From positions 1-44,323 of the forward strand of contig CAMORE010000001.1 of the NCBI GenBank assembly GCA_946623365.1: a stretch of DNA of 44,323 bases. Direction: 5' to 3'. The notes under the pieces are model-generated. The model worked only from the letters and a program-made list of their open reading frames with translations, had not been told where the DNA came from and did not search any database. This stretch comes from an uncultured Acinetobacter sp. Its GTDB lineage: Bacteria; Cyanobacteriota; Vampirovibrionia; Gastranaerophilales; Gastranaerophilaceae. The translations under genes and the position numbers were made by a program. Shown piece after piece: positions 38,718-44,323 of the stretch (position 1 is the stretch's first letter; every line of letters begins with the position of its first letter).

Positions 38718-40340
38718 TTATTCCTCAAGTGTTTTTGGCTCTCCCCATTTATAAATTCTTTTGCCATAAACATATAAACCGCCTTCTAAAGCATTTGCAC
38801 GTATATGTTCACGACTTCCTATTATACGGAATCGTTCTCTTCGTTTTTTCTCACGTTCTGCTTCTAATTTTCTTTGAGAATTTAAAAATTCATCAAGGGT
38901 TGTTAATTTCTTGCTTTTTTCAGTCTGCTGTTTTAAACGAGCCAGTTCTGCTTGAATAGCTTCCATTTGAAGTTTTATAGGATCATCGTCTTTAGGGTTT
39001 CCGGATTGTGGATATCCTGGCATCATGCCGTTTTGTATCATCCCTTGCTGCGGTAGCGCATTTTGAGCTGCTATATCCGCATTTGCCTGACCTTGTGATT
39101 CAGTATCATGTCCTTGATTATTTGCAACTATATTGGGGTTAACGCCATAGAAACTATTATCAAAAGGCATAGCACCATTCATACCATACGAATTTGCTGC
39201 CACAAAGTTATTATACGGCTGATTGCCGAAATCTCCACCGAAATTTTGTTGAGCGGCCGGACGCATTACACTTCCGTTTGTTTCGAATCCTGCAGCTTCT
39301 ATTTTGATTGATTTTGCTATTATTGTGCACTTATTAACTTTTGTTATATCAGAAGGATCCCAATCATCACTACCCATAACTTCTTTTATCAATGCTTGTT
39401 CTTCTTCATCAAAAGAGTCATCAACCTGCATAATAGCATTTGATTCTTTTTTATCGATGTCGTCTTGCTGTTCTATACTTTGTTCCGAATCGTATAAATC
39501 ATCCTCTGCATTATGAGACTCGTTATCCTCTTCAGTACCAAGACTTTCTGCTGCTTCTCCTTCCGATTTCTCAACATCCCAATCCTCATCATCCTCATCT
39601 GTCATTACAGATTCTTTATGTTCGGTATAGTTGTCATTATATTCCTCTTCTTCGTCTGATTCTTCTTCCTCAAAATCGTCGTCCCAATCATCATCCGAAG
39701 TCTCTTCCTCTGGATTTTCTATTTCATTTTCAATATATTCTTCATCAAGTATTTCAAAATCGTCATCAAAATCTTCTGATGCCATTTTGGCTTCAAAAAA
39801 TTCTTCAGCAGCTTTTCCTTCTAAAATTATTTCATTGCCATTTTCGTCTTTTGTTGCAATTTTTTGAGGCAATTTTTGAACACTATTTTCATCACCTTGA
39901 GCTTTAGCTTTTAATTGAGCTTTAATTTTTTCTTTAGCTTTTTCTTTGGCTTTTGCTATAGCTTTTTCTTTAGCCTCAATTGCTTTCTTTCTTTTCTTTT
40001 CCTTAACCATTTCTTTAAATTCGTCAAGGCTGTTATAAACTTCATCTCCTACCGCTAATTTACAATCCGATAACTGAGGTTCGCCGTTTTTCATAGCAAA
40101 ACTCAAACTTGCATTCCCTTTTTGTTTTTTATTTTCAAATTCGATATCTATACTATCATTCACACAATTAAAATTGTTAATTTTAACTGCTTCATCGAGA
40201 GTTTCTACGTTATTTATTATTTGTATAAATTCGCGCATCACAGAAGGAGAAATAGTGCAGATTGCTCTAAACATAGCGTTTATTACAACACTATTACCCA
40301 GATATTCTCCGTTGATAGTGATACCATTTAATTTTCGCAT
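38718..40340 (-). CDS. Hypothetical protein with a K/A coiled coil, a long D/E tract and a G/N/Q/M/P-rich low-complexity region
   Basis: 540-aa ORF with an AGGA RBS, directly downstream of the FliD-like gene. Confidence 0.8.
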   Translation of the reverse strand: MRKLNGITINGEYLGNSVVINAMFRAICTISPSVMREFIQIINNVETLDEAVKINNFNCVNDSIDIEFENKKQKGNASLSFAMKNGEPQLSDCKLAVGDEVYNSLDEFKEMVKEKKRKKAIEAKEKAIAKAKEKAKEKIKAQLKAKAQGDENSVQKLPQKIATKDENGNEIILEGKAAEEFFEAKMASEDFDDDFEILDEEYIENEIENPEEETSDDDWDDDFEEEESDEEEEYNDNYTEHKESVMTDEDDEDWDVEKSEGEAAESLGTEEDNESHNAEDDLYDSEQSIEQQDDIDKKESNAIMQVDDSFDEEEQALIKEVMGSDDWDPSDITKVNKCTIIAKSIKIEAAGFETNGSVMRPAAQQNFGGDFGNQPYNNFVAANSYGMNGAMPFDNSFYGVNPNIVANNQGHDTESQGQANADIAAQNALPQQGMIQNGMMPGYPQSGNPKDDDPIKLQMEAIQAELARLKQQTEKSKKLTTLDEFLNSQRKLEAEREKKRRERFRIIGSREHIRANALEGGLYVYGKRIYKWGEPKTLEE

Positions 40341-40365
40341 GACATGTCCTATACCTGTACATATT

Positions 40366-40392
40366 ATTACGGCATAAAATACAAAAACTTTA
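40366..40392 (-). promoter_or_regulatory. Sigma-28 (FliA/SigD)-type promoter
   Basis: Minus strand TAAAGTTT-11 nt-GCCGTAAT versus consensus TAAAGTTT-N11-GCCGATAA; 25 nt upstream of ATG 40340. Confidence 0.65.
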
Positions 40393-40432
40393 ATTCGAAA
40401 ATATATAATCCATCAAAATATGTATTTTAGCA

Positions 40433-43400
40433 CTATGATTTAAGGAATGAACTGTATTGCTGCTGCATTTGTGCGATAAGCATATCCATTGATTTAAACT
40501 TAGCTTCTAATTGTTCTCTATATGATTCAAGAGCTCTGTTAGCTTTTGATATTTTTTGATTTAAGTTTGTGATTTGTGTATTGAATGATCTGTCCGCAGA
40601 ATCAAAATATCCTGTAACACTTGTTAAAGCACTTTCTACAACATTTTCCATTCTGTTAAATATACCTGTAGACGTATCAGTACCCACAAGCAGGTACTTC
40701 ATAGCATCCCAGTCATTTGCAAATTTACTTTTAAATGTATCTGCATCAAAAGTAAGATTTACAATTGCATCATTAGAAACAGATAAGTTGCTTCCGCTTG
40801 CAGCAGAAGTAGATATACCTACAGCGGAAAGATTTTTATAGAATGTTCCTGCTGATTCTGATGATGTCATAATGCTTCTAAGTTGATTTCTTATCATTTT
40901 GAGTGTTGTTTGATTGCTCAAATCACCGTCTTTTGCAATTGCTTCATCTACGTTGTTCATAAGTTCATTATATGCATTTACAACATCTGAAACAGCACTG
41001 GCAAGTTTTTCGGAATCTTTTGTTACAGTAAGTTTAACAACTTCACCTTCTGAAGCGGCTTTTAGATTTAGTGTAACTCCGCTTATTCTGGAGACATCCT
41101 CTTTTACAATATTGGAATTAGCGGAATAAGTTGTTCCGTTAATTGTGAACTTAGCATTCTGACCAAGAGTTTGGCTTACAACATTCAGATACTTGTTACC
41201 GTTTTCGACTCCGGTGTATCCCATAACATCAGTAAAGTTACTTGTACCCTTATCAATATTAATAAAGGAAGAGCCTGCCATATTTGATTCAATTTGAAGC
41301 TGACCGCTTACGCTGTCCCAATATGCGGTAGCTCCGGAATTTTCATTTGAATTGATTGCAGCTACTATATCATTCATTGTTGTAGTATTTGTTACAGAAA
41401 TTGTCGCATCACCTACTATAAATGTTCCTGTTGTAATGTTACCATTTCTGAACAGCCCTGCTGTTGTAAGTTTGGTTTCACCATTAACTACATATAATTC
41501 ACGAGAGCTTCTTACGGAACCGTCACCCCATTGTGTAGCACCTACTATTGAAGCAAAATTTGTGTTATCTGTTGCTGCGCCGAGGTTAACTGTTGCACCC
41601 GATGATGATTTTAGAACTAAATATCCTTCTTCATCAAAGGAGAACTGAACATCATTGCTGCCAAATGCTGTTTGAAGCTTTTGGTTAAGAGATCTGAATG
41701 TACAATCATTGTCTAAAGTAATAGAAGCTTTTTTACCATTTCTATATACAGATAATGTTCTTGTTGTGCCTTTTGATTCATCCAAACCGGTTGAGATATT
41801 AAGCATTGAAAGTTTAGTATCTAAATTTGCATATTTTGCAGCAGAAACAGTATGGTCTTCAATTGCTGTTGTTGTAGATTTAACCGTAACAGAACTTGAT
41901 GCATAACCGCCCAAATCGTTATTAAATGAAAGTTTTAATTTACTATTGTTATTTTTAAAGATATCAGATGTACCTGTAGAATTAATTGTCATATCTTTAT
42001 AGCCGCTTTGGATAACAATATTTCCGTCTGATATTGTAGCTTCAAGTCCAAGGGCTCTGAATTTACCAAGCAAATCACCTACCGTATCAGTACTGCTTAC
42101 AGAGATAACACTGTTTACACCGTCTACATTTACCGAAATTTGAGCTGTTGCATCAGAAGCAAGAGTCCAGCTTGACTTAATTGCACCGCCTTGAGTATAA
42201 TTTAAATCTCCTATTTTTGTAGTTTCTGTAGCACTGACGGTTGTTGTTTCTGTTCCTTCAACTTTATTTGTACTGTTGTATTGATTCATTTGAGTTGTGG
42301 AAGCGAACAATTTAGATACAATATTTGATTTTTCATTATTGTTTGTTGTATTTGAAGTTGCAACATAAGAATCTCCGTTACCTGTTGTTGTAAGGATAGC
42401 AGAAGTTCCTGATGCATCGCTTACAAGTCTGGATTCAATACCGAATGTTCTCAGAGTATCCATAACATCTCCGAGCGTATCTCCGGTTGAAACCATAGCT
42501 GTGTATCTTACACCGTTATTATAAATATAGTATTCACCGGTTGTAACACCAAGTTCATTTAATGTAGTTGCTCTTGTTGCAGATATAGTATTTGTAGTAA
42601 TTGTTGTAACATCTTCTATTTTACCTTCGTAGGAATCCGTAGTAATCCAGTTTGTCAGACCTAAAACAGAAAGAACATTTGAACCTCCGGATACTGATGA
42701 CAGTGTCGAATTACCTTCATTTTTAACTATCAATTGACCTTTATCATTTATAACTGCGTCAAAGCCGAATTGACCGATTATATCCATAAATGTTCCTACT
42801 GTGTCTTCGGAAGTTAGCGTTACATCTGTTTGAACACCGTCTTTAGTAATTGTGAATTTTCCTGCTGTATATGTTCCTTCAGCTATATTTGAAAGTTTAG
42901 TTTCTCTTGATATTGCTTCTATAACCGGAACAGGTTTTGTTAAGTTATTGGAATCATAAACTTTATTAAAATCCCAGTTAGAGAACAATCTGTTAACGAT
43001 GTTTGAATTTGGCGAACTTGCAAGAAGAGAAGTTTCCAAGTAAGAATCATTGTGACCGCTTACGGATATTGAACCGTCTTCAGAGATATCTGCAATCATG
43101 CCATAGAGTGCTAAATCTCCCATTAAGTCATTTACTGTAGTTTTTTTCGTTATAGAAAGAGTATTTCTTACTCCGTTATCATACAGATAGAAGCTTCCTT
43201 CAGTAATACCTAAATTGTTACCGTCAGAATCCTGCAAATCAACAAGTTTTGTTGACCCGTCAATTTTTGCCGTACGATCTGTGTCTTTAAGGTCCGCAGA
43301 GGTTTGTGTAACTTCTCCCAACGACCATTTTGTTAATCCGAGTTTCGTAAGAATATTAGAGCCGCCTGTAACATTTGCAAGATAGCTATTTCCTATACCT

Positions 43401-44323
43401 GTAATTTCAAGACGACCGCTTGAATCTATACTTGTTGTAAATCCGTATTGAGCAAGCAGGTTACAGAAATCATCTGCTGTTGTTCCGGAGAAGTTAACTG
43501 TATAGTGAACACCTTCCTGAACAATTTCGATATTGCCGTTTGTTACGCCGTAACTTGTTTTAAGATCAGTAGAACCCTGCATCTTATTAACTACCGTATG
43601 AGTTGATTTTACAAAACTTACGCCATTACCTGTTGCGAGTTTGAGAGTATTTTTTAAGTTATCTGACATTCCGAGAATAAAGGTATTTGTCGCACCTGTT
43701 AGTGAAATCTTACCATCGACGACTTGTCCTGAAACTCCATAACCGGCAAGTGTTGTTAGCATATCATCTATTGACATGCCCTTATTAATCGTTATTGTTT
43801 TTTCCGTTCCGTCTTGGACTACTGTCACTGTACCGTTTGCAGCGAGATGCAAGTTTTGATCGAGTTTTGTATCTGTCGTCATATCATGAGTCCAAGTTAC
43901 TGTTTGTTTGTCTGAAAGCGTATTATCTCCCAAAATCGTTGTTGTAACAGTAGTTGTATAATGACGAGAAAGTCCTATACCGGATACATTACCTGAACCG
44001 TTGTTCCAAGTGGATGCAAGGAATCCTGTTACAGATTCAAGCCATCCGTCTGAAGTTCCGACAGCAGTCAGAGAACCGTTATGAACTTCTGTTTCTATGC
44101 CGTATGCAGCGAGAGCTGTTTGTAAATCGCCGACTGTATTTGTAGACGTCATGGTAATCGTGTATAATTGTCCATCATATCTTACGCCTACAGTAGATGT
44201 TGCGGAAGTTTTTCCGTTTGGCAGGTTACCATTTGCGGAATTGAAACATCCTAACTCCCAGAAAGTTGTATCAGCATTAAGATTATTTGTAATCAACCGT
44301 TCTTTCTTTTCAGCTGATGTATT
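40433..44323 (-). CDS. fliD: Giant flagellar cap FliD-like protein, 5'-truncated by the window edge
   Basis: The last ~240 aa show FliD_C hallmarks (GQNAKFTING, GVTLNLK, VNAYNEL, LSAVGIST, L..KF..MD..IAQMQQQ). The frame stays open to base 44323, with at least 9 upstream repeats. Confidence 0.85.
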   Translation of the reverse strand, partial: NTSAEKKERLITNNLNADTTFWELGCFNSANGNLPNGKTSATSTVGVRYDGQLYTITMTSTNTVGDLQTALAAYGIETEVHNGSLTAVGTSDGWLESVTGFLASTWNNGSGNVSGIGLSRHYTTTVTTTILGDNTLSDKQTVTWTHDMTTDTKLDQNLHLAANGTVTVVQDGTEKTITINKGMSIDDMLTTLAGYGVSGQVVDGKISLTGATNTFILGMSDNLKNTLKLATGNGVSFVKSTHTVVNKMQGSTDLKTSYGVTNGNIEIVQEGVHYTVNFSGTTADDFCNLLAQYGFTTSIDSSGRLEITGIGNSYLANVTGGSNILTKLGLTKWSLGEVTQTSADLKDTDRTAKIDGSTKLVDLQDSDGNNLGITEGSFYLYDNGVRNTLSITKKTTVNDLMGDLALYGMIADISEDGSISVSGHNDSYLETSLLASSPNSNIVNRLFSNWDFNKVYDSNNLTKPVPVIEAISRETKLSNIAEGTYTAGKFTITKDGVQTDVTLTSEDTVGTFMDIIGQFGFDAVINDKGQLIVKNEGNSTLSSVSGGSNVLSVLGLTNWITTDSYEGKIEDVTTITTNTISATRATTLNELGVTTGEYYIYNNGVRYTAMVSTGDTLGDVMDTLRTFGIESRLVSDASGTSAILTTTGNGDSYVATSNTTNNNEKSNIVSKLFASTTQMNQYNSTNKVEGTETTTVSATETTKIGDLNYTQGGAIKSSWTLASDATAQISVNVDGVNSVISVSSTDTVGDLLGKFRALGLEATISDGNIVIQSGYKDMTINSTGTSDIFKNNNSKLKLSFNNDLGGYASSSVTVKSTTTAIEDHTVSAAKYANLDTKLSMLNISTGLDESKGTTRTLSVYRNGKKASITLDNDCTFRSLNQKLQTAFGSNDVQFSFDEEGYLVLKSSSGATVNLGAATDNTNFASIVGATQWGDGSVRSSRELYVVNGETKLTTAGLFRNGNITTGTFIVGDATISVTNTTTMNDIVAAINSNENSGATAYWDSVSGQLQIESNMAGSSFINIDKGTSNFTDVMGYTGVENGNKYLNVVSQTLGQNAKFTINGTTYSANSNIVKEDVSRISGVTLNLKAASEGEVVKLTVTKDSEKLASAVSDVVNAYNELMNNVDEAIAKDGDLSNQTTLKMIRNQLRSIMTSSESAGTFYKNLSAVGISTSAASGSNLSVSNDAIVNLTFDADTFKSKFANDWDAMKYLLVGTDTSTGIFNRMENVVESALTSVTGYFDSADRSFNTQITNLNQKISKANRALESYREQLEAKFKSMDMLIAQMQQQYSSFLKS

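What the first reader, a model, noticed from the sequence alone, without database searches (positions are those of the whole stretch)
40433..44323. Giant repeat-expanded FliD-like protein: possible repurposed flagellar tip or adhesin system
Seen: at least 1296 codons with the frame still open at the window edge. A recognisable FliD C-terminal region (about 40433-41170) is preceded by at least nine diverged ~100-aa T/S/G/N-rich repeats. Their pattern is TKL..L...G...hxxNG....hxh....TV.Dh...L..YG....h..G.h, resembling the flagellin hook IN motif. No flagellin, fliS or other flagellar gene lies downstream in this window. Known: canonical FliD is roughly 450-700 aa. Inference: the cap has become a long multi-domain surface protein, such as a tip adhesin or a filament-like structure, exported by a flagellar-type apparatus. 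With the sigma-28-type promoter on the neighbouring gene and the leader-motif proteins, this is the best candidate in the window for an undescribed system. The link among the three is a hypothesis.
Basis: partly seen in the sequence, partly recalled or inferred. Interest (0 to 1): 0.8.

Follow-up and report, generated by a model that had tools for sequence, protein, structure and literature searches.

The report
Giant second flagellar cap with stalk
A gut bacterium that already has a normal flagellar tip-cap gene also carries the end of a second, far longer cap gene (1,200 to about 6,600 residues in relatives), whose repeats are predicted to fold out and back into a long stalk that likely sits on the flagellum tip and likely displays a fast-changing, probably adhesive, apex.

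Summary
Window 40433-44323 (minus strand) is the 3' part of a FliD-family gene cut by the contig end, with FliD_C and nine diverged repeats. The host is a Gastranaerophilales bacterium with motor, export, hook and filament genes and a separate normal 579-aa FliD, so this is an accessory second cap gene, not a relic of a lost flagellum. Complete relatives (1,200 to about 6,600 aa) keep FliD_N and FliD_C. A 1,200-aa relative models with an intact D0-D3 cap core (Z 21.1). Repeats come in an N-arm type and a C-arm type that switch near the middle (0.475 +/- 0.074), and a complex model pairs the arms antiparallel (0.82, best control 0.00). This predicts an out-and-back stalk. Its apex is hypervariable and carries GLUG-type beta-helix inserts in 11 of 38 representatives. 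The window holds only the returning arm, so the whole protein is probably about 2,300 aa or more. Best reading: an alternative or mixed flagellar tip cap that displays a variable adhesin. Capping, export and adhesion are untested. The link to the neighbouring sigma-28 gene is not supported. New variant of a known kind.

The parts
40433..44323 (-). 3' part (1,296 codons plus stop) of a giant FliD paralogue; 5' part missing at the contig end
   Evidence: spanned by an independent contig
40460..41164 (-). FliD_C: C-terminal half of D2, D1 and the D0 terminal helix (residues 1054-1288)
   Evidence: Pfam PF07195 E 6.3e-38; long terminal helix in the model
41183..41494 (-). Repeat 9, head domain shared with the normal FliD (likely D3); weak Flagellin_IN match
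41510..41905 (-). Repeat 8, second head domain shared with the normal FliD
41930..42298 (-). Repeat 7, C-arm type
42257..42637 (-). Repeat 6, C-arm type
42632..42979 (-). Repeat 5, C-arm type
42947..43330 (-). Repeat 4, C-arm type; its predicted fold matches an outer domain of H. pylori hook protein FlgE2 (5npy_A, Z 9.5, rmsd 2.5, 106 aligned)
43298..43609 (-). Repeat 3, C-arm type
43604..43960 (-). Repeat 2, C-arm type
44000..44296 (-). Repeat 1 (nearest the cut), C-arm type
40366..40392 (-). Sigma-28-type promoter site 3' of the giant gene, placed before the 540-aa gene; not part of the giant gene's control
38718..40340 (-). 540-aa acidic protein of no known family; a neighbour, not linked to the giant gene in the relatives tested

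Best explanation
This is the 3' part of an accessory, giant second FliD that is likely exported through the flagellum and likely sits on the filament tip as an alternative or mixed cap, where its repeats are predicted to form an out-and-back hairpin stalk that holds a fast-changing, probably adhesive apex away from the cell. Shown: FliD_C and nine repeats in the window; a separate normal FliD and motor, export, hook and filament genes in the genome; FliD_N plus FliD_C, 6-36 repeats and central inserts in complete relatives; purifying selection on the arms. Predicted: an intact D0-D3 cap core; N-arm and C-arm linker strands zipping antiparallel with the repeat domains hanging off them; roughly 4 nm per tier (my estimate from 11-residue strands), so some 25-60 nm of reach. 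[quoted passage not shown] The window has only C-arm repeats, so the missing part likely holds an apex, a matching N-arm and FliD_N, about 2,300 aa or more in all. Whether this copy carries GLUG inserts is unknown.
For: Flagellum present: FliF, FliG, FliI, FlhA, FlgI, FlgK and FlgL over their NCBIfam cut-offs, FlgH and FliH below cut-off; MotB_plug, FliS, FliA, one MCP and 9 rod/hook matches; 13 Flagellin_N matches, one of them FlgL; normal FliD at C8. The giant goes with a normal cap: 16 of 24 same-genus genomes have FliD_C in a frame of 1,000 aa or more, and 15 of these 16 also have a ~580-aa FliD. All 23 genomes with a giant frame listed in a 200-genome family search also list a short FliD. 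78 of 84 same-family genomes had no FliD_C match at all; 5 of these, tested further, had no flagellin (0 of 5) yet kept the other export gate (5 of 5). Core intact: all 12 complete giants scanned have FliD_N, and 11 of the 12 list FliD_C (for L055 the genome search shows it). The AlphaFold model of a 1,200-aa relative (pLDDT 79) aligns to 9m67_A over 390 of 421 residues, Z 21.1, rmsd 3.8. The first 30 residues are 69% and the last 47 are 46% identical between giants and normal FliDs. PMC8533109 (passages) shows that the terminal helices decide cap function and that heads can be swapped or enlarged. Stalk: repeats are of two types, switching at 0.475 +/- 0.074 of the repeat count in 31 representatives with 12 or more repeats; N and C counts correlate (Spearman 0.50, p 0.004; kin are not independent). 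Complex model of residues 113-345 with 575-835 of the 1,200-aa relative: 0.82, best of 3 controls 0.00; that mark was reached by 116 of 157 solved complexes and 2 of 215 mismatched pairs; the runs agree in at least 78% of contacts, partner pLDDT at least 80; residues 227-229 meet 600-597 in reverse order. Apex: 30 of 42 inserts of 150 aa or more, and 26 of 28 GLUG-like ones, lie in the middle third; Pfam Glug and Peptidase_M26_N hit some of them. In close pairs the arms are conserved and the centre is not: L070/L072 are 97-98% identical with dS 0.07-0.12 in the last 1,000 aa, and 36-63% identical with dS 1.3-1.8 in the centre; L049/L052 have arm dN 0.02-0.05 and dS 0.39-0.66, and centre identity 45-54%.
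Against: Nothing here shows export, capping or adhesion. FliD_N, the N-arm and any GLUG insert are absent from the window and from the rest of this assembly. Only 11 of 38 representatives carry GLUG-like inserts, and the window protein is a deep branch among the giants (best identity 58%, in no starred group), so its length and cargo cannot be borrowed from the 4,400-aa class it aligns to at 43-47%. Both the core model and the complex are of a relative, not of this protein. The complex joins two parts of one chain, used my own alignment, and may pass by likeness to nested domains of solved axial proteins. pTM was low (0.34 and 0.40). Giants have diverged from the normal cap in helix residues 31-60 (25% identity) and keep only 97 of the 196 columns conserved in the normal C-terminal part. 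The giants lack the sigma-28 site that 4 of the 15 distinct normal fliD genes examined show (score 10.5 or more). 8 of 24 relatives show no giant, 4 of them 97% or more complete. The high central dS may be inflated by saturation and misalignment.
Confidence: 0.55

Rival explanations
1. The giant uses its FliD ends only as an export signal and chaperone site. It passes through the flagellum and is released or rebinds the cell surface as a free adhesin or matrix protein, without capping.
For: A normal cap is nearly always present. Helix residues 31-60 and half of the conserved C-terminal columns have drifted. No sigma-28 site.
Against: The whole D0-D3 core is kept and models like a cap. Identity among giants stays 47-61% across D1-D3, more than an export tag would need (inference).
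Confidence: 0.15
2. The giant is a tip cap, but its variable apex serves as a decoy or shield against antibodies, phages or grazing protists rather than as an adhesin.
For: A hypervariable, apparently exchanged centre with conserved arms is what antigenic variation looks like. PMC8306008 (passages) reports H. pylori D4/D5 as the more antigenic domains. 27 of 38 representatives have no GLUG-like insert.
Against: A 250-700 kDa stalked protein is costly for a decoy (inference). GLUG/M26_N-type beta-helices are typical of surface binding proteins (recalled). FliD-mediated mucin adhesion has precedent (PMC8306008 passages).
Confidence: 0.13
3. The giant caps the hook-junction and blocks or replaces filament growth, giving a short, filament-less adhesive appendage in a sessile cell state, while the normal FliD serves swimming cells.
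For: Different upstream control: no sigma-28 site, and a TTACCC-like word 23-134 bases before 13 of 20 giant starts. FliD first assembles on the hook junction (PMC8306008 passages). A huge cap might hinder the motion needed to insert flagellin (inference).
Against: Doubling the head did not stop filament growth in Pseudomonas (PMC8533109 passages). The TTACCC word is also common in other intergenic DNA of this genome.
Confidence: 0.12
4. The giant is the tip or substrate of the second, non-flagellar type III-like export system that Gastranaerophilales carry.
For: The genome has a second set (SctV-leaning gate, FliF/SctJ-like ring, FliE, FliH-like protein) on C60.
Against: Five non-flagellated relatives keep that gate but have no flagellin and no FliD_C match. 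Giants were found only beside a normal FliD, with one exception in an 86% complete genome.
Confidence: 0.04
5. Assembly artefact or decaying duplicate without function.
For: The gene is cut by a contig end, and two relatives (G019, G357) have split copies.
Against: An independent contig spans the region, 20 of 22 listed differences are at third codon positions, 70 distinct complete giants were collected, and arm dN/dS is about 0.1.
Confidence: 0.01

Closest known systems
Canonical FliD/HAP2 filament cap (PF02465 + PF07195; PDB 5H5V, 6SIH, 9M67)
   Same: FliD_C in the window; FliD_N and a full D0-D3 core in complete relatives; the host has flagellar genes.
   Different: 2 to 11 times longer, an accessory second copy beside a normal cap, 6-36 repeats, a variable central cassette, and no sigma-28 site.
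Helicobacter pylori FliD with extra head domains D4-D5 (PDB 6IWY) and Campylobacter jejuni FliD with D4 (6SIH)
   Same: Extra small domains added to a cap. PMC8306008 and PMC7316729 (passages) link them to antigenicity and, as a postulate, to adherence. 6iwy is a Foldseek hit, E 7.1e-07.
   Different: One or two extra domains in the organism's working cap, against up to 34 here in two matched arms with separate cargo domains. The C. jejuni D4 is inserted in D1, whereas here the expansion lies in the head.
Flagellins with cargo in the hypervariable centre (flagellinolysin; giant flagellins)
   Same: Conserved export/assembly ends with a foreign domain inserted centrally and displayed outside (PMC5595980, abstract). 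Giant flagellins are recalled.
   Different: Here the carrier is the cap, not the filament subunit, so only a few copies would sit at the tip. Pfam found no catalytic peptidase domain in the 16 inserts and proteins scanned. This genome's flagellin frames are ordinary, 275-390 aa.
GLUG-motif / Peptidase_M26_N beta-helix surface proteins (PF07581, PF05342)
   Same: The central inserts of 11 of 38 representative giants.
   Different: Inserted into a loop of the FliD repeat, 1-7 copies per protein. Not present in the part of the gene held in this window.
Long repeat-stalk adhesins (RTX adhesins such as 4P99, periscope proteins)
   Same: A repeat stalk holding a binding tip away from the cell (recalled). 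4p99 was a weak Foldseek hit, probability 0.21.
   Different: Those are linear chains anchored at one end (recalled). Here both ends return to the cap core, so the stalk is predicted to be a two-armed hairpin.

Membership tests
FliD/HAP2 filament cap | FliD_C domain with C-terminal D0 helix | tested here: met
   PF07195 E 6.3e-38, 131 bits over cut-off 25.4; terminal helix in the model
FliD/HAP2 filament cap | FliD_N domain at the N-terminus | tested here: inconclusive
   The window's 5' end is missing and the only FliD_N in the assembly belongs to the normal gene. All 12 complete giants scanned have it.
FliD/HAP2 filament cap | D0-D1-D2-D3 fold | tested here: met
   Met on a 1,200-aa relative: Z 21.1, rmsd 3.8, 390 aligned to 9m67_A. 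The window's half-model finds FliD structures first, but with poor rmsd because the N-terminal half is absent.
FliD/HAP2 filament cap | Host encodes flagellar export, hook, junction and filament | tested here: met
FliD/HAP2 filament cap | Oligomerises on FlgL or flagellin and promotes filament growth | not testable with these tools
FliD/HAP2 filament cap | Late flagellar (sigma-28) control, common but not universal | tested here: inconclusive
   The window's promoter is missing. No good site before 20 giant starts; a site before 4 of 15 distinct normal fliD genes, including this genome's.
Extended-head FliD (H. pylori D4-D5 type) | Extra head domains related to the cap's own D2/D3-type domains | tested here: met
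   One HMM finds the two head repeats of the normal FliD and all nine window repeats. The repeats model as separate alpha/beta domains.
Flagellin_IN motif (PF07196) | Score over the curated cut-off | tested here: not met
   21.9 bits against cut-off 22.7, last repeat only
GLUG / M26_N beta-helix surface proteins | GLUG motifs or M26_N region in the protein | tested here: inconclusive
   None in the 1,296 residues held; the centre is missing; present in 11 of 38 relatives.
Adhesin (functional class) | Binds a host or particle ligand | not testable with these tools
   Inferred from architecture only.

The most novel reading that the evidence does not exclude
Several genera of gut Gastranaerophilales have turned the flagellar tip into a modular display platform. 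A second cap gene of 1,200-6,600 aa (up to 8,905 aa in a more derived sister family) builds a two-armed hairpin stalk and carries interchangeable beta-helix adhesin cassettes at its apex, swapped between strains by recombination. These would be among the largest substrates of a flagellar type III channel.
Probability: 0.45. Interest if true: 0.85.

Novelty: new variant of a known kind. Interest (0 to 1): 0.7.

Why it matters
If true, it gives an uncultured gut lineage, sister to Cyanobacteria, a specific and testable way to attach, and it shows a cap family with two jobs split between two genes: a short conserved cap and a giant variable one. It raises direct questions for flagellar biology: how long a chain the export channel can thread, whether mixed caps form, and how a two-armed stalk folds at the tip. 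The core-plus-stalk design is also a natural scaffold for displaying large domains on flagella. Enlarged FliDs of 1,300-2,200 aa appear in other phyla in unchecked notes of this scan, so length alone is not the novelty. The accessory copy, the matched arms, the cargo cassette and the size are.

Tried and rejected
The 5' part of this gene was not found: the repeat HMM and tblastn with the long frames of relatives hit only C1 and C8 among FliD-type genes of the assembly, a JGI metagenome scan with residues 1-351 found no relative, and the contigs laid reach only about 30 bases past the edge. No RNA holder was listed, so expression is open. The protein atlas gave no result for the window protein or for one stored homologue. 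A second homologue search from a distant giant returned only 4 proteins, so there is no survey of FliD length across bacteria here. Self-BLAST of the protein found no internal repeat; the HMM did. Gene neighbourhood says nothing about mobility, because neighbours vary for normal and giant fliD alike (6 normal loci dropped out of that script). The TTACCC word upstream of giants is also common in intergenic DNA. OTU1_UBXL, RL10P_insert and ubiquitin-like Pfam hits on the repeats cover 20-35 residues and were treated as chance likeness. The tree kept 51 rows after a text filter and removal of duplicates; it left out the normal FliDs of other families and several same-genus ones, and has no outgroup, so it shows a split (35 giant against 16 normal rows, 100/100), not the direction of origin. 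The GLUG-like HMM was built from 13 of these same inserts, so it is circular for detection though not for position. Literature searches listed no paper describing giant or second FliDs in this group; the library lacks most subscription papers, I read no supplements, and gene tables in the supplements of the Melainabacteria papers could mention them.
Full report
Observation. The minus-strand frame runs 1,296 codons from the window end to a stop at 40433-40435. The window is a whole contig. FliD_C covers residues 1054-1288 (E 6.3e-38). Nine diverged repeats precede it; 8 of 9 beat all 500 shuffles in a leave-one-out test, and an iterated HMM finds all nine. A 4,448-base contig of another public run, on record as bovine gut metagenome, spans 39907-44323 at about 96% identity. 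Of the 22 listed differences in the ORF, 20 are at third codon positions. The feature is real and under selection.

Host. Record titles of related loci name Gastranaerophilales and Melainabacteria. The genome has FlhA, FliF, FliG, FliI, FlgI, FlgK and FlgL over cut-off, FlgH and FliH below cut-off, MotB, FliS, FliA, an MCP and nine rod/hook matches, and 13 Flagellin_N matches, one of them FlgL. It also has a normal 579-aa FliD with FliD_N, two of the same repeats and FliD_C. Papers (passages read) report flagella in a subset of this order: PMC3787301, PMC4040986, and bioRxiv 10.64898/2026.04.24.720558, which gives about 25% with a complete set. The passages seen do not mention a giant FliD.

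Distribution. Of 24 same-genus genomes, 16 have FliD_C in a frame of 1,000 aa or more, and 15 of those also have a ~580-aa copy; 8 show no giant, 4 of them 97% or more complete. Across 97 genomes of the genus, 50 match the giant-only part at E 1e-20 or better and 64 have two or more FliD_N matches (not all extra copies are giants). In 250 genomes of the class, 74 matched FliD_C and only one besides this genome had frames over 1,000 aa. In 200 genomes of the family, giants of this type appear in three genera, up to a 6,603-aa frame, and a more divergent type in two more; all 23 genomes with a giant frame also list a short FliD. Five genomes with no FliD_C match had no flagellin but kept the second export gate. 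On a tree of the last 370 residues, 35 giant rows and 16 normal rows fall on two sides of one branch (100/100, unrooted), and the window protein is a deep branch among the giants.

Architecture. I collected 70 distinct complete giants of 1,200-6,133 aa, 38 after clustering at 60% identity, with 6-36 repeats. All 12 scanned have FliD_N. AlphaFold folds the window's residues 338-1296 as a string of separate alpha/beta domains (pLDDT 73, pTM 0.34); one repeat matches an outer domain of H. pylori FlgE2 (Z 9.5, rmsd 2.5, 106 aligned) and, more weakly, Geovibrio flagellin (Z 7.7). The complete 1,200-aa relative folds with a full cap core: Z 21.1, rmsd 3.8, 390 of 421 residues of 9m67_A. PMC8533109 (passages) shows that the terminal helices decide cap function and that heads can be swapped or doubled. 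The giants keep 69% identity to normal FliD in the first 30 residues and 46% in the last 47, but only 25% in residues 31-60.

The stalk. Because the chain leaves and re-enters the core, the repeats must form a loop. Two HMMs, trained only on repeats 2-4 and on the 4th-6th from the end, sort the repeats into an N-type run and a C-type run. The switch lies at 0.475 +/- 0.074 of the count in the 31 representatives with 12 or more repeats (range 0.31-0.62; two distant proteins and five short ones left out). A complex model of the two arms of the 1,200-aa relative scored 0.82 against a best control of 0.00. That mark was reached by 116 of 157 solved complexes and 2 of 215 mismatched pairs; the runs agree in at least 78% of contacts, partner pLDDT is at least 80, and linker strands pair in reverse order. 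This supports, and does not show, a zipped hairpin: the two pieces come from one chain, my own alignment was used, and nested domains of solved axial proteins may lend likeness. One relative has an 818-aa insert that itself reads as threonine-rich strand out, globular tip, threonine-rich strand back. Window repeats 1-8 score as C-type and repeat 9 is a tie. Five of the six representatives with nine C-side repeats are 2,375-2,549 aa long and one is 4,940 aa, so this gene is probably about 2,300 aa or longer.

The apex. Of 42 inserts of 150 aa or more, 30 lie in the middle third; of 28 GLUG-like ones, 26 do, in 11 of 38 representatives. Pfam Glug and Peptidase_M26_N hit several. They sit inside a loop of the repeat. 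In close pairs the arms are 91-98% identical with dN/dS near 0.1, while the centre falls to 36-63% with synonymous distance up ten-fold in the closest pair. That pattern suggests exchange of the centre by recombination, though saturation could inflate it. Contigs of three runs end within about 35 bases of the window's edge, which would fit a variable region just upstream; this is a weak hint.

The sigma-28-type site at 40392-40366 is real: 35 strict sites in the genome against 0-1 in 10 shuffles, among them the normal fliD and a flagellin. It lies 3' of the giant gene, before the 540-aa gene. That gene is on other contigs than the giant in the 3 of 5 relatives where it was found, beside the TPR gene. 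The 20 giant starts examined have no good sigma-28 site. The three features do not form one system on this evidence.

Mechanism. Most likely (0.55) the giant is exported unfolded through the flagellum by its FliD ends, joins the tip as an alternative or mixed cap, and zips its arms into a stalk that presents a variable, probably adhesive apex. FliD-mediated mucin adhesion and antigenic extra head domains have precedent (PMC8306008, PMC7316729, passages), as does cargo in a flagellin's centre (PMC5595980, abstract). Rivals: released rather than capping (0.15), decoy rather than adhesin (0.13), filament-less hook-tip appendage (0.12), second export system (0.04), artefact (0.01). Export, capping and binding are all untested.

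Novelty. It works like FliD and meets the tested family features that the fragment allows. Nine literature searches listed no description. Unchecked notes of this scan describe FliDs of 1,300-2,200 aa in other phyla, one with nested stalks, so enlarged caps recur. A second, accessory cap of up to about 6,600 aa with matched arms and a variable cargo cassette is a new variant of a known kind. Interest 0.7.

Noticed in passing
L107/L108 (G449:C1), L109/L110 (G393:C11), L113/L114 (G274:C1), L115: A more derived sister family of 3,022-8,905-aa frames in two other genera: the same repeats, up to 8 or more GLUG-like modules, a weak FliD_C-like end and an N-terminus without the canonical FliD start; often in divergent pairs, and in G274 just upstream of the normal fliD.
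   Followed up: partly
L096:6434-11782 (G000:C60): A second export set: FliE, FliF/SctJ-like ring, a 346-aa unknown, a FliH-like protein and a gate scoring higher on SctV than on FlhA. A full-length gate is kept in 5 of 5 non-flagellated relatives.
   Followed up: partly
G000:C121:211-1287 and most relatives: A third FlhA-like protein of about 495 aa that matches only the C-terminal half of the FlhA model.
   Followed up: no
G000, 35 sites including window 40366-40392: A large sigma-28-type regulon, mostly before lineage-specific proteins that I did not annotate, some of 1,137-1,784 aa. They could be further flagellar export substrates.
   Followed up: no
L055/L056 (G008), L058/L059 (G022), L062: Head-to-tail pairs of a ~5,000-aa and a ~1,300-1,400-aa giant fliD, about 20-35 bases apart.
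   Followed up: partly
upstream of giant fliD starts in L040-L058, L075: A TTACCC-like word 23-134 bases before 13 of 20 giant starts; the word also occurs in short intergenic arrays elsewhere in this genome.
   Followed up: partly
L085:4509-14804: An 818-aa central insert that reads as Thr-rich strand, globular region, Thr-rich strand, with no GLUG likeness.
   Followed up: partly
L086 (G357:C15), L044 (G019:C66): Split or internally deleted giant copies.
   Followed up: no
L099:9694-14736 (G000:C22): Five short flagellin genes (284-315 aa) in tandem.
   Followed up: no
G000:C24:3-17081, C41:2-8146, C19:14974-21780: Other very long open frames (5,693, 2,715 and 2,269 aa, all cut by contig ends) unrelated to FliD.
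   Followed up: no
G005:C27, C24, C5: A 99% complete relative with three short FliD_C-bearing frames (589-619 aa) and no giant.
   Followed up: no
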